DNA from: Aulosira sp. ZfuVER01
Lineage (GTDB): Bacteria > Cyanobacteriota > Cyanobacteriia > Cyanobacteriales > Nostocaceae
Assembly (NCBI GenBank): GCA_034530615.2
Contig: JAVRCV020000010.1
Coordinates: forward strand, 1-64,000
Direction of reading: 5' to 3'
Length of the DNA stretch: 64,000 bases
Below, one piece after another: positions 39,001-48,000 of this stretch. Made by a program: the position numbers. Position 1 is the first letter of the stretch. Each line of letters starts with the position of its first letter.

Positions 39001-42000
39001 CGATCGGGGTGTACTCGCACGTGAATCCCGCCAACTACCGACATTGTGGGGATAACTGTGCGAGCTATTGGTACAGCCGTGGCATCGAGGTTTTGAATAT
39101 CAACCCCGACTGACATTAAACCAGCAATGAGCGATCGCGTTACCATACGCGATACATTCCGCTGATCCCGAGAAACCGTTACCTTAGAGCCTGGTTTCAA
39201 AGTGGAACCGTAAGCTGCTCCCAACTTCACCGCAAATTCGGGCGTGATATCAACATTGGCTAACCCCTGTACACCACGTTGCCCGAATAAATTTCTTTGG
39301 GCAGTATTCCCCCAAATCAAATTGATATTTAAAATCGCACCTGACTCAATTTTTTTACTAGGCCAAACTCTGACACCAGGGCTGATTTGGGCTTCCTCGC
39401 CTACAGTAGAAAGCGAACCCACTACAGATGCTTCTAATACATGAGCGCGGCGGTCAACACGGGTACCACGGGAAATCACACAAGCGGAAAGTTGTGCTTC
39501 CTCGCCAATAATTGCCCCATTCCAAACAATTGGGCGCTTCAAATTTGCATCAGCACCAATAGTTACATTGTCCCCAATTATAGTTCCGGCTTCAATTTGT
39601 ACCCTTGCCCCAATCCGGCAATTGTCACCAATCACGGCAGGTGTTTCAATAATAGCTGTGTGGTCAATATAGGTGTTTTGACCTTTCCATATACCTGCAG
39701 AAAATTCTTTGTAAGCAAAGTCGAGTTTTACCTTGCCATATAGCGCATCATACTGAGCTTCACGATAGGCATCTAAATGACCAACATCGCACCAATAACC
39801 TTGAGCAATGTAGCCATACATTGGCTCATTTTTTTCCAGTAATAAGGGGAATAAGTCTTTGGAAAAGTCGCATTCTGTGTTTTCTGGCAGGTATTCTAAA
39901 ACTTCTGGTTCGAGAATGTAAGTACCTGTATTGACGGTATCAGAGAAAATTTCACTAGTAGAGGGTTTTTCTAAAAATCGATTGATCCGGCCTTCTTCAT
40001 CGGTAATCACTACACCAAATTCAATCGGGTTGGGGACGCGGGTCAAAATCAAAGTAGCTTTTGACTGTTTTTGTTTGTGAAATTCAATTGCTGCTGTTAA
40101 ATCAAAGTCTGTTATGCTATCACCACTAATTACTAAGAAGGTTTCATCTAGGAGTTCGGCAATATTTTTCACACAACCAGCCGTCCCAAGAGGTTGGTCT
40201 TCTTCTACGGCATAGGTCATCTGCACGCCAAAATCACTGCCATCTTGAAAGTAGTCTCGCAAGACATCAGGTAAATAATGCAGTGTCGCAATTACTTCTG
40301 TGATTTGATGCCGTTTGAGGAGATTGATGATATGTTCGGCAATCGGTCGATTTAAGATGGGCACCATCGGTTTGGGTAAATCGCAAGTTAACGGGCGAAG
40401 CCGCGTTCCCGAACCGCCTGCCATCAGCACTGCACGCATAAATCCTCCTTAGCTGTTTGCAGCATTTGCTGCGTCAAGACCCGCAATATACGTTGTGTTC
40501 TTCTTACTCTAGTCTCCTATGGATGTTGATATTTGAGTAACTCCCACAAGATGCATCTGATCAAATCAAAGCATATATACTTATTCTTATAGAATAGGCT
40601 GCTAGGAAACAGAAAGTTAACAAACCCCGTGGAAATGTTGGGTTTTGTTCCTCAAACGCCACTTGCTTCAAACCGGGAAACCCACGCAACCCAGTGGCTC
40701 ATCAACCTACACAAATTTAAGGTTTTTGACGCTAAAACCAAGCGTATTAGGTTATAAGAACACTGCAAGTTCCAACTAAGATTTTCAGTTCATCAAAAAC
40801 TGGCATTGCATAGTTGACAATCAGCCAGTTTCTCAATTTTCAATTAAAACCTTTGCGACTTTTTGTAGCAAAGATGATTGACTATTATCACTTATTTTTA
40901 AAATATTGTGAGTTAGCGTAGTAAAATGTAAAGCTGTCATGGTATGTTCAATTAGTTCAGATGTCTGAATTGACTCGCCAGAATATGTCTTTCCAATCAA
41001 GTGATAAACTCTAAACCCTCTTTTCACTGTACCATTAAGATTTTGACCAGGCGGAACATAATACTGAACAAATTCTTCGTTATGTAAATCCAAACAGATC
41101 ATATTTTTTATTCTGTTAATAGGTTTAATTTCCTCGCTATAATACATTGCCAAAGGTAATAATTTACTACCATTGTTACCTTTAATTGTGCTAATTGTTC
41201 GGTTAATTTCTAGCGTTCCCTTTTCCATTTCTTCAAGAATACCATTGCGTCCAATTAAAGTTGGTGTATACAAGTCCTCTGTATAGCAGCTAATATATAA
41301 CTTTTCCGATTCATCTACAAAATATTGTTGATCGTTAATTAATTTATCTGATTTATTTTTCTGCCTTCTTAAAAATCGAAAGTTTTTCTCTATCTCTTTT
41401 ATATTGCGCATTACATCTTTGATATATATGCGACCCTCTTTATATAAAAATTTTACGGCTACTGCTTTAGCTTCCTTGTTTCGAGGACTGCGCACATATA
41501 TAGTATAGAATTCTTTTTTAGGTAATGATTCAGCAGTAATGGGCAAACCCAAGGTAGGATCTAAAAGACTTTTCCTCATCCAGTTCTTAATTCCTAGTTC
41601 AATCAAGACCTTCTCAAATTCCGGCGAAATATTTAGCTTGTACTCATTGTAGAAATTTTTCCATAGTTCGTTATTTTCTTGACTACTTAAATAGCAGTAA
41701 ATACAATCTTCTACATCCAAGAATTTACCATCCGTAAAATCCTGCGTATCCTTGCGCAAAGTATCTGGAGTAATTTTAGAAGGCGTATATTTAAGAACTG
41801 ACCAACTAGGTTTTGCCTTTCCAATAGCCTTCTTTCCAACAGCCTTAAATTCAGGTATATTTATCCCCTGGGTGCTAAAAAACTCTCCTGTATGCAAATA
41901 GTTAAATCTTCTCTTTAACTGGGAATAAAAATCTACTTTCACTTTATTATCTATTTGTGTTGATGGCTCCCAGAAACCATCATTTCTCTGGTAAGCCATT

Positions 42001-45000: not shown

Positions 45001-48000
45001 ATTCAACCAGATACCCTTATTTTTACAATCATTAATAAAATCTTTTAAAATATTTTTCTCAAATCGTTCTACAACTTCTTGTGTCTTGTTATTTGGAAAA
45101 GATGGTAAATTTTCATTGAAAAAATTCACTGTAATCTGGCGGTTAGCATCACGCTGATTTCTAATTTCTTCACAAAGCAATATTTCTTCTTCAATCATTG
45201 CTTTAAATGAAGTTTTACCAGACTCATTACGTAAATTATCTTCTAAATAACCCATATCATAACTTGTACTTAAATCCCCAAATACTCCTCCTGTTGCTGA
45301 AATTAAAAAAATCACATTACTATTATTAGCTAGCATAGATTTTATTTTGAATTCAGGCGAAGTCAATATAGCAGTACTCCCAATAGAGACTTCTCTAAGT
45401 GAGTGAGCAATCAAGTTATTATTAGGATTTTGATACCGAGAAATTTCTTTGATATTTATGATAGATTTATAGCTTTCATAGACATAGATACGGTTTAAGT
45501 ATTTGATCAGTTGATTTGGCGATGAGTTTTCTTCACTTGCTTTTTGCGCTTTATCTATCTGTTGTGACCAAATATCTAAAGAACGAGATTGAGAATCTTC
45601 AGCATCCAAAACATTAGCCAGAAAATCTTTGATGGTTTTGATTTGTAATCTAACAGCCAGAATGGCATAAATTAATTCTGCTACAGAAGTATTATCTGAA
45701 ACTTGTTCCTCAGTGATGTGAACATGACCACCGGAAGGTCGGGTTAAAAACAATTGTTTTAGAGGTTCGATGTTGTAGATGTATAGGTTGTTATATGAAA
45801 AAATGTTCATCAACTCATCACTGATTTTGTTGTAAAGCTGCTGAGGAATCAACAAACTTCTATTATTCTCGAATTTTGAAAAAACTCTGGATAACATTTC
45901 AAAATCCAATATCATGGAACTCTCTTTATCGGAATCATCGAAAATCTCCATGATTTCTGCCATTGATTTTTCAAGCCCTTTGATAATCGTTATTACCTGT
46001 GCTAAAAACTTGATAGAGTTCCCTTCTTCAAAGGTCAGGCGTTGATATATTGGGGCTAGTTTTTGCAGTTTTGGGTCAATATCTTTATTACGCTCAAAAT
46101 ATTCTTGTAATTCTTGATAAGCTCCCTTATTATTCGCAACATAATTAAGAAATTCTCTATTTTGATTATTTTGACTAGAAAAAAGAATAGAAAACTCTCT
46201 ATTAATAGATGAAAGTGCATTATTGATTGCTAGCTTTTGAGGGGAGATGATATCAATTTTCTCATCTAACATAATTTGGTAGCCATCTTCCTGCTCATCA
46301 AATGCCACGATAAACTTTCTGGAGTTGTTCGTGTGTTGAATAACGTATTTATCTAGATGGCTATTTTGCTTTACCCATTTTTTACCATTATGCTTAAAAT
46401 AGGGAATAGCGGTTTCAAACTTATCATAAGTGAGCATTAAAATACCAGATTTATCTTGCAGTAGATGGATGGGAAAAAATATTTCTACTAACTTTAAACA
46501 TTCATCTGTCCAGCTTTCCCGATCCAATTTACAATTGATGAGTAATTCTAAAAATTTTTCAATTAAATTATTTATTTCATTTCTTGCTTTTTTGACCTCA
46601 TATTTATTAAGTTCATCATCGCCAAAACCTACTGTTTTGATAAACTCAAGGCGGCGTATAACCTTTTCTGCTATCTTGAGTTTTTCTTGAATTTCTTGAA
46701 TATTTTCCTGAGAATATACTTCTGATTTTATCTTCCAGAAAGTTTTATCTTTGAGGATTGCAGGTATCCATTTTTTATATAATTTGATACACTCATCCGT
46801 CATTTTCATTTCTAAGGAATTTAGTTTATAGACGGGAATACGTGCATATTGAGTCTGAACTGAAGTTGGAACACATAAATGTTCTCTTAATGGGGCAACA
46901 TATATGCCGATTATCACAGTATCTGGATGCTTTTGAATTGTTTGATATATAGCTTGAAACAATTGATGGGTCTTTCCTGAGCCTGTACCATAATTGATGA
47001 GTTTGAGTTGAGAACAGTTATCTCGAAAACTATCTTCAATGGTTGTCAGGTAGGAATTAAGAATTTGGGAACGAGCCGATTCTAGCTGCTGACTAGGAGA
47101 ATCTTTTTGATTTTGCATTACGTGCCATCATCTTATTTAGGTTAAATACATAACACCCCTGCGCTTGGTTGACCGACTAATCTTTAGCCCAGGGCGGTTG
47201 AAATTGCTGTTATCAGGTCAAATTTGCTGCAAGCCGACTATATAGAACTTTTCGGAAATCTCGAAATATACCAAAATTTGCCCGTTTATTTACCTAATTC
47301 GTCATAAATGTATAGAAATTTTCTCAAGAAAATCTCAATTTGAGTAAGATACAAGCTTCTTTCGGTTCCTTGGGATATTCTCGCTCACCTCTAGCATTAG
47401 AAGCGTCGCATAACTTTTCGGTATACTGAATTTTGCTAGTTCACACAATAATCCCACCCCTTCGGGTGACGCTACGCGAACGTCGCTCTAAGCGAAGCTA
47501 TACCGCAGGCTTGACGCTGCGCTAACACCACTTTGCTTATGCCGGGAAACCCATCCACCGCAAGTGGTTCACCGCACACAACTTTTCGCAAAATCCAAAA
47601 TCCAAAATTGTTTGACGCTACAATCGAACAGTGGTCATGAGTTAATAGTCAATAATGCTGAATTTTTGACTTCAAACTCACAACTCGTAATTTTTGAGAA
47701 TGTTGCCAAGAGAAGAACTTTTAAAAAGTGTTGAAAATCGAGAGAGTGTAGCTCGTGTAATCGATCAGGCGGAACAAGCAATCAAAACTTGGGAAGTTGT
47801 TTTGACAGATTTTTTGTCTCCCCCAGAATTAGCAGAAATTCAACGGGTGTTCAGTCGGTTAACCGAGGTGCAATTGGTGGCGTGGGGTGGATATCCCCAA
47901 GCGGAACGCCAAAGATTAGCGATCGCTCGCGCAGAAATCCCCCTAGATCAGTCCCAAGTCGCTTTGGCTGCATTAGAAATTGCGGGTAATTTCTTGTTTG

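What a model noticed while it worked through the whole genome (the two positions that open the first line are those of the whole stretch)
40833..47118. Sequence-orphan DdmDE-like two-gene module (helicase-nuclease + Argonaute-like) on C10
g00977 (1315 aa) and g00976 (778 aa), a low-GC (32%) two-gene cassette wedged between housekeeping genes, have no Pfam, NCBIfam, Swiss-Prot or PADLOC match, yet their predicted folds are those of DdmD (SF2 helicase + PD-(D/E)xK nuclease) and DdmE (Argonaute-like) of the Vibrio cholerae plasmid-defence system DdmDE. They define a divergent DdmDE-like family, conserved (54-87% identity) as an adjacent pair across cyanobacteria and invisible to present defence-system HMMs. 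The genome also holds a canonical, HMM-detectable DdmDE pair (g01536/g01535, C19:63241-68857).
Evidence so far: Pfam and PADLOC at E<=1: nothing meaningful for g00976/g00977; profiles of 24 and 22 homologues against all PDB sequences: no DdmD/DdmE hit. AF2 models from family alignments: g00976 (pLDDT 59) top 5 Foldseek PDB hits all DdmE (E 8e-7 to 5e-5), then Argonautes; g00977 aa 1-680 (pLDDT 68) top 14 hits all DdmD (from E 6e-7); aa 640-1315 (pLDDT 80, pTM 0.79) top 19 listed hits all DdmD (from E 2e-11), next 3e-3. Invariant Walker A GTGSGKT (44-50), DEQED (274-278) and C-terminal D1215...D1228-V-K1230 in 22 homologues. 203 (g00976) and 140 (g00977) homologues, nearly all cyanobacterial 'hypothetical proteins', with consecutive locus tags in at least 6 genomes. 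C19 pair: g01536 hits PADLOC DdmD 1e [...]
(Added by a program. Inside this text positions count along the whole contig: contig position 1 is position 1 of the stretch shown here. "Call 12" and the like, gene names such as g00115 and contig names such as C1 are that model's own, and its searches are not shown. The text may have been shortened before it was handed on; [...] marks where a part breaks off. The agent that wrote the report below was given it as the finding of a first reader that could run no searches.)

Follow-up and report, generated by a model that had tools for sequence, protein, structure and literature searches.

The report
Cyanobacterial ApsAB-type anti-plasmid gene pair
The two unannotated genes are a cyanobacterial copy of ApsAB, a helicase-nuclease plus Argonaute-like pair that removes plasmids in E. 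coli, so this is a real defence-type module of a family already published.

Summary
The two genes exist as described: 43171-47118(-), 1315 aa, and 40833-43169(-), 778 aa. They are translationally coupled, low in GC (32.4% against 41.6%), lack HIP1 sites, and get no hit from Pfam, NCBIfam, PADLOC or PDB sequence searches.

They are not an undescribed DdmDE-like family. They belong to the ApsAB class (Zongo et al., Nat Commun 2024, PMC11096173). That paper's supplementary tables list the nearest homologues of both genes as ApsB-like and apsA-like. One listed ApsB-like protein is 87-88% identical to the 778-aa protein.

I tested this directly against a true ApsAB orthologue from an Enterobacterales genome. 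The window's ApsA-like profile matches ApsA at 99.2% probability (E 1e-19). The ApsB-like profile aligns end to end with ApsB (62.7%, E 7e-5). The published Y-x3-K...QG...K motif and the C-terminal Asn line up.

DdmD is a more distant homologue (95.5% over the C-terminal part). Similarity to DdmE is suggestive only (12%, but above 9 of 9 null controls).

The likely function, inferred and not shown, is guide-directed elimination of plasmids or other foreign DNA.

An earlier report of this scan (e1-4211125) reached the same reading on another genome.

Verdict: a new member of a known kind, of modest interest.

The parts
43171..47118 (-). apsA-like gene, 1315 aa: SF2 helicase fused to a C-terminal PD-(D/E)xK nuclease
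   Evidence: ORF. hhalign of its family against a true ApsA orthologue gives 99.2%, E 1e-19, 755 columns. Its closest relatives are listed as apsA-like in PMC11096173 Supp Data 8.
46969..46989 (-). Walker A GTGSGKT (aa 44-50)
   Evidence: G44-K49 are invariant in 41 homologues. The lysine is kept in 21 of 21 rows that cover it, including 6 proteobacterial partners. It corresponds to ApsA K221 and DdmD K55, both essential in the papers.
46285..46299 (-). Walker B / motif II DEQED (aa 274-278)
   Evidence: D274 and E275 are kept in 21 of 21 rows. ApsA has DELH 532-535, and its E533A mutant is dead.
45292..45300 (-). helicase motif III SAT (aa 607-609)
   Evidence: Kept in 22 of 22 rows. ApsA has SAT 823-825.
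44326..44349 (-). helicase motif VI QAIGRSER (aa 924-931)
   Evidence: Q, G, R, E and R are kept in 22 of 22 rows. ApsA has QAVGRVER 1140-1147. SAT to Q is 317 residues in both proteins.
43429..43485 (-). PD-(D/E)xK nuclease core E1212-x2-D1215 ... D1228-V-K1230
   Evidence: Kept in 22 of 22 rows. It aligns with ExFD...DFK of canonical DdmD. ApsA has D1420...D1433-V-K1435 with the same 13-residue spacing. The weak NCBIfam YraN hit falls here.
43177..43182 (-). Shine-Dalgarno AAGGAG for the downstream gene, inside the end of the upstream gene
   Evidence: Read from the sequence. The stop is TAA at 43173-43171 and the ATG is at 43169.
40833..43169 (-). apsB-like gene, 778 aa: Argonaute-like partner without a catalytic tetrad
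   Evidence: ORF. Its family aligns end to end with a true ApsB orthologue (62.7%, E 7.2e-5). P0004, 87-88% identical, is WP_190630650.1 in the paper's list of ApsB homologues.
41865..41927 (-). MID-type motif Y415-x3-K419 ... Q434-G435
   Evidence: Counts in 49 sequences: Y 49, K 48, Q 49, G 46. This is the published ApsB motif Y409, K413, Q431 with QG; the ApsB K413A mutant is dead. hhalign pairs Y415 with Y409, K419 with K413 and Q434 with Q431.
41586..41600 (-). E524-x3-K528, the last Lys of the MID-type motif
   Evidence: E in 48 of 49 and K in 49 of 49 sequences. hhalign places them on E420/K424 of the DdmE family. Those correspond to Glu401 and Lys405 of V. cholerae DdmE.
40836..40862 (-). 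conserved C-terminus K770 ... E777-N778-COOH
   Evidence: K770 in 49 of 49, E777 in 39 of 49, terminal Asn in 44 of 49 sequences. ApsB ends in N743, which the paper proposes lies in the guide pocket.
40655..40693 (+). copy of a dispersed short repeat in the downstream spacer
   Evidence: It pairs with 47524-47562 at 72% identity in direct orientation. The stretch has many copies in related genomes. Any role in acquiring the module is inferred only.
47524..47562 (+). second copy of the dispersed short repeat, in the upstream spacer

Best explanation
The cassette is an intact cyanobacterial member of the ApsAB class of two-gene systems.

Likely mechanism, by analogy. The 778-aa ApsB-like protein is a non-cutting Argonaute-like sensor. 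It holds the 5' end of a short nucleic-acid guide in a MID-type pocket formed by Y415, K419, Q434, E524, K528 and the C-terminal K770...E777-N778. It uses that guide to find complementary foreign DNA, most likely plasmids. It then brings in or releases the 1315-aa ApsA-like protein. That protein's SF2 motor (K49, D274/E275, SAT, QxxGRxER) translocates on the DNA, and its C-terminal PD-(D/E)xK site (E1212, D1215, D1228, K1230) cuts it.

What is shown here: gene structure, family membership, conservation of the catalytic and pocket residues, conservation of the pair, and foreign composition.

What is taken from experiments on relatives: anti-plasmid activity and the need for the Walker A, Walker B and MID lysine residues (E. 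coli ApsAB); DNA-guided targeting and helicase hand-over (V. cholerae DdmDE).

What is inferred for this locus: guide loading, the type of guide, the target range, and physical contact between the two proteins.
For: (1) Membership in print. PMC11096173 defines ApsA by GFGKS 218-222, DELH 532-535, SAT 823-825, QAVGRVER 1140-1147 and D1420...D1433-V-K1435. It defines ApsB by Y409, K413, Q431, K489 (Y[X]3K[X]nQG[X]nK) and a C-terminal N743. It says ApsAB-like systems occur in cyanobacteria (passages). Supp Data 7 and 8 list Calothrix WP_190630650.1 (P0004, 87-88% identical to the 778-aa protein, prefix identical). They also list Nostoc, Aliterella, Microcoleus, Crocosphaera, Cyanothece, Desmonostoc and Roseofilum pairs; file 2 holds the word Cyanobacteriota 22 times, and the 11 rows I saw are all labelled apsA-like.

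(2) Direct test. A true ApsAB orthologue was found in an Enterobacterales genome (G496). Its ApsB is 743 aa with Y409, K413, Q431, G432, K489 and N743. Its ApsA has GFGKS at 216, DELH at 532, SAT at 823, QAVGRVER at 1137 and DVK at 1430. The window's ApsA-like family matches it at hhalign 99.2%, E 1e-19, and 102.8 bits by HMM. The ApsB-like family matches at 62.7%, E 7.2e-5, over 651 columns end to end.

(3) The pair is kept together across about 20% identity. An ApsA-like ORF lies directly upstream in 7 of 7 cyanobacterial loci and in 13 of 15 loci of distant relatives. Of the other two, L021 has none and L026 has no upstream DNA. An Acidovorax megaplasmid carries the same pair.

(4) All catalytic and pocket residues are conserved.

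(5) There is no conserved DEDX tetrad. After residue 530 only D619 and E777 are acidic in at least 80% of 49 sequences.

(6) Language-model features put the 778-aa protein nearest a 'Piwi domain-containing protein' cluster (0.96, 216 of 256 features).

(7) The module looks foreign and is patchily distributed. GC is 0.324 and there are no HIP1 sites. It occurs in 7 of 401 cyanobacterial genomes and was not found in the same-genus genome G180. The flanking genes are not neighbours in relatives.
Against: No experiment exists for any cyanobacterial member. Identity to E. coli ApsA and ApsB is only about 16-17% in the paper's PSI-BLAST columns. The ApsB-like match to a single ApsB orthologue reaches only 62.7% probability. 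The Argonaute fold could not be checked here, and the Atlas's own model of the protein is poor (pLDDT 0.49, pTM 0.46; TM 0.44-0.46 to a Piwi cluster). The ApsAB paper itself says ApsB lacks typical PIWI and PAZ domains. The cyanobacterial ApsA-like protein lacks the roughly 165-residue N-terminal extension of proteobacterial ApsA, so its regulation may differ. No guide, target or phenotype is known. One of the seven cyanobacterial copies (G368) has internal stops in both genes, so the system can be lost.
Confidence: 0.82

Rival explanations
1. The pair is a very divergent member of the DdmDE family proper. The 778-aa protein would be a DdmE-type 'long-C' Argonaute and the 1315-aa protein a DdmD orthologue.
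For: The ApsA-like family plus 7 distant partners aligns with canonical cyanobacterial DdmD at 95.5%, E 1.6e-8, across motif VI to the nuclease; 5 null controls scored at most 21.7 against 82.8. Three colinear segments cover the Walker A, motif II and residues 605-1296. Like DdmD (K55), the protein has its Walker A lysine near the N-terminus (K49), unlike ApsA (K221). The ApsB-like family against the DdmE family gives E 0.0023, colinear over 12-684 against 2-701, and pairs Q434/E524/K528 with the DdmE residues that hold the guide's 5' end. That score exceeds 9 of 9 null controls.
Against: The PADLOC DdmD and DdmE models find nothing at E<=10. The ApsA-like HMM gives at most 3 bits against six canonical DdmD but 102-139 bits against ApsA-like proteins. 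The ApsB-like to DdmE match is only 12.4% probable, and the DdmE-family HMM does not hit the ApsB-like relatives. The published classification puts these proteins in the ApsA-like and ApsB-like classes.
Confidence: 0.1
2. The pair is not a defence system. It would be a housekeeping or mobile-element DNA-processing helicase-nuclease with an accessory protein, used for repair, recombination or an element's own maintenance.
For: No phenotype is known in cyanobacteria. The window around it is housekeeping: kaiA/kaiC, gyrA, PFK and efflux genes, with no other defence genes adjacent. Sequence conservation within cyanobacteria is high for a defence gene (54-88%).
Against: The distribution is patchy: 7 of 401 genomes, and it was not found in the same-genus genome. 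Composition is foreign. One copy is decayed. Homologues in E. coli, including one only 28/25% identical to ApsAB, destabilise plasmids. No integrase, transposase or tRNA lies beside it. It was not found in phage records or viral contigs.
Confidence: 0.04
3. The module is present but inactive in this strain, either silent or domesticated.
For: No RNA data could be found. The only promoter-like site upstream (47237-47264, 9 of 12 matches) is no better than chance: 34 sites found against 27.6 +/- 5.3 in shuffles.
Against: Both reading frames are intact and every catalytic and pocket residue is kept. The two genes are tightly coupled, with a good ribosome-binding site for the second.
Confidence: 0.04

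Closest known systems
ApsAB anti-plasmid system of E. coli ST38 (Zongo et al., Nat Commun 2024, PMC11096173)
   Same: The gene order is the same: helicase-nuclease first, Argonaute-like second, directly adjacent. The helicase motifs match (Walker A GxGK[ST], DE, SAT, QAxGRxER, with SAT to Q 317 residues in both). The nuclease signature D-x12-D-V-K matches. The ApsB motif Y-x3-K...QG...K, the N-terminal (A/S)RTN and the C-terminal ...EN match. Profile-profile matches to a true orthologue are 99.2% and 62.7%. The paper's own tables list the window's near relatives.
   Different: Identity to the E. coli proteins is about 16-17%. The ApsA-like protein is 1315 aa and lacks the roughly 165-residue N-terminal extension (Walker lysine at 49, not 221). 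Motif II is DEQE rather than DExH. The ApsB-like protein has a longer insert between the Q and the last K (94 residues against 58). The host is a cyanobacterium, and activity has not been tested.
DdmDE of Vibrio cholerae and Lactobacillus casei (PDB 8u0j, 8u3k, 9ezy, 9iw3, 9ix4; bioRxiv 10.1101/2024.05.10.593530)
   Same: The design is the same: an SF2 helicase fused to a PD-(D/E)xK nuclease, plus a catalytically dead Argonaute. ApsA-like is a remote homologue of DdmD (95.5%). The nuclease residues line up as E-x2-D...D-x-K. The Walker A lies near the N-terminus. The MID-pocket residues may correspond.
   Different: There is no HMM-level similarity. The partner proteins are related at best marginally (12.4%). 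The same genome holds a true DdmDE pair on contig 19, so the two are separate systems.
Long prokaryotic Argonautes (Pfam Piwi PF02171; PADLOC pAgo), including inactive long-B pAgos that work with a partner nuclease
   Same: The 5'-end-binding motif is of the Y-K-Q-K type, and the free C-terminus is conserved. Language-model features are nearest a Piwi cluster.
   Different: None of 49 family members hits any Piwi, PAZ or MID model in Pfam. hhalign against 20 cyanobacterial pAgos gives 0.1%. The proven Argonaute DdmE also scores only 0.2% in that same test, so this failure says little. There is no DEDX tetrad.
Type I CRISPR Cascade with Cas3 (analogy drawn in the DdmDE paper)
   Same: A guide-bearing sensor recruits a helicase-nuclease to foreign DNA (passage).
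   Different: There is no CRISPR array, no Cas proteins and no homology. This is an analogy only.

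Membership tests
ApsAB | ApsA: SF2 helicase motifs (Walker A GxGK[ST], DExx, SAT, QAxGRxER) | tested here: met
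   GTGSGKT 44-50, DEQED 274-278, SAT 607-609 and QAIGRSER 924-931 are invariant in 41 homologues and kept in the proteobacterial partners. The paper's motifs are quoted.
ApsAB | ApsA: C-terminal PD-(D/E)xK site D...D-V-K | tested here: met
   D1215...D1228-V-K1230 has the same 13-residue spacing as D1420...D1433-V-K1435 and is kept in 22 of 22 rows.
ApsAB | ApsA: detectable sequence homology to ApsA | tested here: met
   hhalign 99.2%, E 1e-19, 755 columns, and HMM 102.8 bits against the orthologue in G496. Near relatives are listed as apsA-like in Supp Data 8.
ApsAB | ApsB: motif Y[X]3K[X]nQG[X]nK | tested here: met
   Y415 in 49 of 49, K419 in 48, Q434 in 49, G435 in 46 and K528 in 49 sequences. 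These align with Y409, K413 and Q431 of the orthologue.
ApsAB | ApsB: conserved C-terminal Asn | tested here: met
   The protein ends ...IEN. The terminal residue is Asn in 44 of 49 sequences. ApsB ends in N743.
ApsAB | ApsB: detectable sequence homology to ApsB | tested here: met
   hhalign 62.7%, E 7.2e-5, over 651 columns end to end. The HMM of the close family alone gives 32.9 bits in two colinear pieces. P0004, P0005 and P0024 are listed as ApsB homologues in Supp Data 7. This is the weakest of the rows marked met.
ApsAB | Operon: apsA directly followed by apsB on one strand | tested here: met
   There is a 1-nt gap. The same order holds in 7 of 7 cyanobacterial loci and 13 of 15 distant loci.
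ApsAB | Destabilises plasmids; needs the ATPase, helicase and MID lysine residues | not testable with these tools
   This was shown only for E. coli systems.
DdmDE | DdmD family membership by sequence model | tested here: not met
   The PADLOC DdmD model finds nothing at E<=10. The ApsA-like HMM gives at most 3 bits against 6 canonical DdmD. Remote homology is seen only by profile-profile comparison (95.5% over 917-1277).
DdmDE | DdmE family membership by sequence model | tested here: not met
   The PADLOC DdmE model finds nothing. The DdmE-family HMM finds nothing. hhalign gives 12.4%, E 0.0023.
DdmDE | DdmE fold: N, L1, C-APAZ, L2, MID, and PIWI with the INS insertion | not testable with these tools
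DdmDE | Guide 5'-end pocket residues (Vc Tyr363, Gln376, Glu401, Lys405, Lys674, Glu678) | tested here: inconclusive
   Counterparts exist in order: Y415 or Y424, Q434, E524, K528, K770/K773 and E777. hhalign pairs Q434, E524 and K528 with the DdmE-family equivalents. The alignment is not statistically secure, however.
Classical pAgo (Piwi PF02171) | PIWI domain recognised by the Pfam or PADLOC pAgo models | tested here: not met
   None of 49 members hits Piwi, PAZ or MID. PADLOC finds none. hhalign against 20 pAgos gives 0.1%.
Classical pAgo (Piwi PF02171) | DEDX catalytic tetrad | tested here: not met
   After residue 530 only D619 and E777 are acidic in at least 80% of the sequences.

The most novel reading that the evidence does not exclude
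ApsB-type proteins may be true homologues of DdmE (the 'long-C' Argonautes). They would share the guide 5'-end/Mg pocket: Tyr, Gln, Glu-x3-Lys, and a C-terminal Lys...Glu. This runs against the ApsAB paper's statements that DdmE lacks the MID-like motif and that the two folds differ. ApsAB and DdmDE would then be one ancient two-gene system at both genes. The cyanobacterial 'short' ApsA, with its Walker A at the N-terminus as in DdmD, would be an intermediate form. This genome keeps three Argonaute-type systems at once: ApsAB-like on contig 10, DdmDE on contig 19 and a long pAgo on contig 46. That would imply that they differ in guides or targets and are not redundant.
Probability: 0.4. Interest if true: 0.45.

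Novelty: new member of a known kind. Interest (0 to 1): 0.3.

Why it matters
The locus adds no new kind of system, but three points have practical value.

1. ApsAB-class pairs are still missed by PADLOC 2.0 (2023), Pfam (2025 copy) and NCBIfam 20.0 (June 2026). Genome scans will therefore keep reporting them as orphans. The alignments made here (A1, A2, A4, A5) could seed models.

2. Cyanobacteria are hard to transform and carry many plasmids. An intact ApsAB-type pair, next to a DdmDE pair and a long pAgo in one genome, is a candidate barrier to genetic manipulation. It is also a natural case for asking whether such systems are redundant.

3. The tentative correspondence between the ApsB motif and DdmE's solved guide pocket gives a testable link between two systems that the literature treats as unrelated at the Argonaute gene.

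Tried and rejected
- PDB sequence searches with single proteins and with profiles A1, A2 and A4 found nothing relevant.
- A Pfam scan of all 49 members of A4 found no Piwi, PAZ or MID family.
- hhalign of the ApsB-like family against 20 cyanobacterial pAgos found nothing. The proven Argonaute DdmE also fails that test, so it is uninformative.
- I tried to reach E. coli ApsAB through DNA. blastn of the Photorhabdus locus against 20,395 E. coli records gave no match. Two cluster look-ups of 20 distant relatives showed none from E. coli, and P0416 (708 aa) is not the E. coli 708-aa ApsB-like protein. The problem was solved by searching Enterobacterales genomes with A5.
- The search for related loci with the 33-row A5 failed because it had no conserved stretch. 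A 6-row subset was used instead.
- Mobile carriers: there was no match in phage records or viral contigs. Among 72,556 plasmids there was one weak match, the Acidovorax megaplasmid.
- Expression: no RNA holder was listed for the stretch.
- Island borders: the flanking genes are not neighbours in five related genomes, so no empty site could be aligned. No tRNA, integrase or Rfam family lies beside the module. Promoter-like and terminator-like sites are no more frequent than in shuffles.
- A 'defence island' reading was rejected, because the neighbours are housekeeping genes.

Full report
WHAT IS THERE

The minus strand holds two long ORFs. One runs 43171-47118 (1315 aa, P0001). The other runs 40833-43169 (778 aa, P0003); a TTG-extended frame reaches 43238. 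The first gene ends ...AAGGAGAGATAA. One base later the ATG of the second gene begins, so a strong ribosome-binding site for the second gene lies inside the end of the first.

The 6.3-kb module has GC 0.324 and GC3 0.28-0.29. The rest of the window has GC 0.416, and the flanking genes have 0.45-0.46. The cyanobacterial HIP1 octamer occurs 49 times in the 64-kb window but not once between 39131 and 47919.

The neighbours are ordinary genes: a nucleotidyl-transferase/phosphomannomutase fusion, an SLH-fasciclin protein, YlmH and an ABC transporter. Further out lie kaiA/kaiC, gyrA and PFK. No integrase, transposase, tRNA or Rfam family lies beside the module.

Two copies of a dispersed short repeat sit in the spacers on either side, at 40655-40693 and 47524-47562 (72% identity, direct). 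The flanking genes are not neighbours in five related genomes, two of them with both flanking genes on one contig, far apart. The module therefore sits at a break in synteny.

THE 'ORPHAN' OBSERVATION

- PADLOC at E<=10 gives nothing for either protein.
- Pfam gives only sub-threshold DEAD and ResIII hits at the Walker A.
- NCBIfam gives only a weak YraN hit (a PD-(D/E)xK family) at residues 1198-1239.
- The PADLOC DdmD and DdmE models, run over the whole genome, find only the contig-19 pair.
- PDB sequence searches with single proteins and with profiles find no DdmD or DdmE.
- Word-indexed searches return 203 and 144 homologues. The 120 listed for each are 58-88% and 54-82% identical. Nearly all named ones are cyanobacterial 'hypothetical proteins', and seven pairs have consecutive locus tags.
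- In 41 aligned ApsA-like sequences, GTGSGK 44-49, D274/E275/E277, SAT 607-609, Q924/G927/R928/E930/R931, E1212, D1215 and D1228-V-K1230 are invariant.

BEYOND THE CLOSE FAMILY

A profile of 40 close homologues of the 778-aa protein (A1) was scored against 1.84 billion representative proteins. It returned 97 hits. Besides fragments and close relatives there were two proteins of about 815 aa and about 31 full-length proteins of 660-766 aa at E 1e-19 to 1e-3.

Named members come from Photorhabdus, Marinobacterium, Thiopseudomonas and Pseudomonas. None hits PADLOC DdmE or the HMM of the canonical DdmE family.

I fetched fifteen genomic loci of such relatives: Photorhabdus spp., Thiolinea, Colwellia, Alteromonadales, Crenothrix, Parabeggiatoa and Aequorivita. 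Thirteen carry an ApsA-like ORF, whole or in pieces, directly upstream on the same strand. In L021 none was found, and L026 has no upstream DNA. The HMM of the window's 1315-aa family hits the seven partners I tested at E 6e-44 to 7e-33 over nearly the full length.

The same holds in 7 of 7 cyanobacterial loci found in a sample of 401 genomes of the phylum. It also holds on an Acidovorax megaplasmid. The two genes have therefore stayed together down to about 20% identity.

In the 49-row alignment A4, these columns are conserved (counts out of 49):
- D413 49, Y415 49, K419 48
- Q434 49, G435 46
- E524 48, K528 49
- D619 48, P636 49, T753 49
- K770 49, E777 39, and a terminal Asn 44

After residue 530 only D619 and E777 are acidic in at least 80% of sequences. 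A DEDX tetrad is therefore not conserved.

IDENTIFICATION AS ApsAB

An earlier report of this scan on another genome (e1-4211125) named ApsAB, so I read the paper (PMC11096173; passages, supplementary tables).

It describes ApsA as an SF2 helicase with a PD-(D/E)xK nuclease. The motifs are GFGKS 218-222, DELH 532-535, SAT 823-825, QAVGRVER 1140-1147 and D1420...D1433-V-K1435. It describes ApsB as a 743-aa Argonaute-like protein with Y409, K413, Q431 and K489 (Y[X]3K[X]nQG[X]nK) and a C-terminal N743.

Mutations K221A and E533A in ApsA, and K413A in ApsB, abolish plasmid destabilisation. K1435A reduces it. [quoted passage not shown] The paper states that ApsAB-like systems occur in some cyanobacteria.

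Its Supplementary Data 7 lists, as ApsB homologues:
- Calothrix WP_190630650.1, 770 aa. The printed prefix is identical to P0004, the 87-88% homologue of the window protein.
- Nostoc sp. B(2019) NDJ25339.1
- Aliterella WP_045053644.1, whose prefix is identical to P0024
- Microcoleus proteins

Each is listed with a 1307-1317-aa upstream protein. Supplementary Data 8 holds the word Cyanobacteriota 22 times. The 11 rows I saw are all labelled apsA-like, and 10 of them have a downstream ApsB-like protein. The listed identity to ApsA and ApsB is about 16-17%.

The window's motifs match point for point, including the 13-residue D...D spacing and the 317 residues from SAT to motif VI.

DIRECT TEST

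I searched 401 genomes of the order that contains Photorhabdus with the distant-relative alignment A5. Five had a match.

One of them, G496, holds a true ApsAB orthologue. Its ApsB is 743 aa with Y409, K413, Q431, G432, K489 and N743. Its N-terminus by eye closely resembles the E. coli ApsB printed in the supplement. Its ApsA is 1556 aa with GFGKS at 216, DELH at 532, SAT at 823, QAVGRVER at 1137 and DVK at 1430.

- The HMM of the window's close ApsA-like family scores it at 102.8 bits. Six canonical cyanobacterial DdmD score at most 3 bits.
- hhalign of A2 against the single ApsA orthologue gives 99.2%, E 1e-19, over 755 columns.
- hhalign of A1 against the single ApsB orthologue gives 62.7%, E 7.2e-5, over 651 columns from residue 11 to 775. 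It pairs SRTN with ARTN, Y415 with Y409, K419 with K413 and Q434 with Q431.

A quick, unrooted tree used 22 rows: 9 of the 41 A2 rows, 7 proteobacterial partners and 6 DdmD. The contig-cut L027 partner was left out. The careful search did not finish. The tree puts DdmD on by far the longest branch from the two ApsA-like groups. I give it little weight.

RELATION TO DdmDE

The genome's contig-19 pair is a true DdmDE.
- The 1146-aa protein hits PADLOC DdmD at 1.2e-40 and solved DdmD at 3.5e-56.
- Its 741-aa partner gets no PADLOC hit at 0.01 and 1.6e-3 in the genome scan.
- A 31-row profile of the partner's family (A3) hits solved DdmE at 9.5e-31 (L. casei type) and 2.6e-13 (V. cholerae).

I compared six canonical cyanobacterial DdmD with the window's ApsA-like family. 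Four of the six rows were cut by my trimming to an internal Met inside the Walker A region.
- The close family gives three colinear hits: Walker A at 73%, residues 605-1296 at 48%, and motif II at 12%.
- A broader 22-row query was built from P0001, 14 further rows of the 41 in A2, and 7 proteobacterial partners. It gives 95.5%, E 1.6e-8, for 917-1277 against 796-1089. It aligns E1212-x-F-D1215...D1228-V-K1230-x-W with E-x-F-D...D-F-K-x-W.
- Five null controls (reversed or column-shuffled templates) scored at most 21.7 against 82.8.

These are the positions of V. cholerae DdmD Glu1082, Asp1085, Asp1100 and Lys1102 (passage). ApsA-like and DdmD are therefore remote homologues, as the ApsAB paper also found by PSI-BLAST.

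For the partners the case is weaker. A4 against A3 gives 12.4%, E 0.0023. With a looser setting the alignment is colinear over 12-684 against 2-701. The score of 37.0 exceeds all nine null controls, which ranged from 14.8 to 24.8.

The alignment pairs Q434, E524 and K528 with Q397, E420 and K424 of the DdmE family. Through the alignment to chain 8u0j_A (chain index plus 10), these are Gln376, Glu401 and Lys405 of V. cholerae DdmE. Those residues hold the guide's 5' end and its Mg ion.

As a calibration, the proven Argonaute DdmE family scores only 0.2% against 20 cyanobacterial Piwi-domain pAgos. The ApsB-like family scores 0.1%. Profile methods are blind at this distance.

The ESM Atlas adds partial support. 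Language-model features of the 778-aa protein are nearest a 'Piwi domain-containing protein' cluster (0.96, 216 of 256 features). The Atlas's own low-confidence model (pLDDT 0.49) aligns to a Piwi cluster at TM 0.44-0.46. The C-terminal half is nearest pPIWI_RE MID/RNase H clusters at 0.85, which counts as a lead only.

WHAT COULD NOT BE DONE

I also could not check that the motif residues form one pocket.

HOW IT PROBABLY WORKS

By membership in the ApsAB class, and by analogy with the solved DdmDE mechanism, the likely sequence is as follows.
- The ApsB-like protein binds a short guide by its 5' end.
- It recognises complementary foreign DNA.
- It hands the DNA to the ApsA-like motor-nuclease, which degrades it.

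Only the parts list and the conservation are shown here. Activity, guide type, targets and contact between the two proteins are inferred.

Differences from E. coli ApsAB are these:
- The roughly 165-residue N-terminal extension is missing. The Walker lysine is at 49, as in DdmD at 55, not at 221.
- Motif II is DEQE instead of DExH.
- The insert inside the MID-type motif is longer.

DISTRIBUTION

The ApsB-like gene was found in 7 of 401 sampled cyanobacterial genomes, and not in the same-genus genome G180. Canonical DdmD was found in 8 of 301, and Piwi-domain pAgos in 23 of 251.

Among these samples, which are not identical sets, only this genome showed all three. One cyanobacterial copy (G368) has internal stops in both genes. 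There was no match in phage records or viral contigs.

LITERATURE STATUS

A whole-word search for 'ApsAB' returned 11 papers (listing only). One concerns an unrelated Lactobacillus transporter. I read the founding paper (passages and supplements) and passages of one 2026 review. By their titles and abstract openings the others concern antibiotic resistance, plasmids or conjugation, and none is structural or cyanobacterial. None of the DdmDE structural papers from the first search appears in that list.

VERDICT

This is a real, intact, horizontally acquired two-gene system of the published ApsAB class. It is a new member of a known kind.

Noticed in passing
G000 contig 19, locus L002 5242-10858 (C19:63241-68857): This is a true DdmDE pair in the same genome. 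DdmD hits the PADLOC model at 1.2e-40, but the 741-aa DdmE is nearly invisible to the PADLOC DdmE model (no hit at 0.01; 1.6e-3 in the genome scan). Only a family profile links it to solved DdmE (9.5e-31). Cyanobacterial DdmE proteins are therefore also under-detected.
   Followed up: partly
G000 contig 46, locus L055 1450-3771 (-): This is a 773-aa classical long Argonaute (PADLOC pAgo_II, 1187 bits; Pfam Piwi). With it, the genome holds three Argonaute-type systems: pAgo, DdmDE and ApsAB-like.
   Followed up: partly
window 40655-40693 and 47524-47562 (wider: about 40612-40756 and 47457-47619): Copies of a dispersed short repeat flank the module in direct orientation (72% identity). The stretches have tens of copies in related genomes. 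They may have helped recombination at this site.
   Followed up: partly
window 23918-26146 (-): This 743-aa protein has an N-terminal caspase (Peptidase_C14) domain and a C-terminal GUN4-like domain. It hits the PADLOC models PD-T4-6 (7.8e-41, over the GUN4-like part) and caspase (4.2e-18).
   Followed up: no
window 57170-59689 (-) and 33628-34515 (-): An 840-aa ORF and a 296-aa ORF have no Pfam hit at 1e-5 and no PADLOC hit at 1e-3. The 296-aa ORF lies in a second low-GC stretch (0.32-0.34 at 34-36 kb).
   Followed up: no
L030 (G368:C27:11444-16753): In this related cyanobacterium both the ApsA-like and the ApsB-like gene are interrupted by in-frame stops. The copy is probably decaying.
   Followed up: partly
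L067 (Acidovorax sp. DW039 plasmid NZ_AP029020.1, 76475-91069): An ApsAB-like pair (1372 aa and 727 aa, ending ...LEN) sits on a 365-kb mobilizable megaplasmid, next to a TIR-domain protein and an IS3 transposase. A plasmid here carries an anti-plasmid-type system.
   Followed up: partly
L014, L018, L023, L024, L028 (upstream ORFs): The proteobacterial ApsA-like proteins carry a roughly 165-residue N-terminal extension before the Walker A. It is absent from the cyanobacterial proteins and from the Thiolinea protein (L022). Its function is unknown. In one Photorhabdus protein it gives a weak Cas4 hit (0.047).
   Followed up: no
L017 and L021 (Photorhabdus kayaii, P. noenieputensis): In L017 the ApsA-like gene survives only as fragments. 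In L021 the ApsB-like gene is split between two frames and no ApsA-like ORF was found. These are further decayed copies.
   Followed up: no
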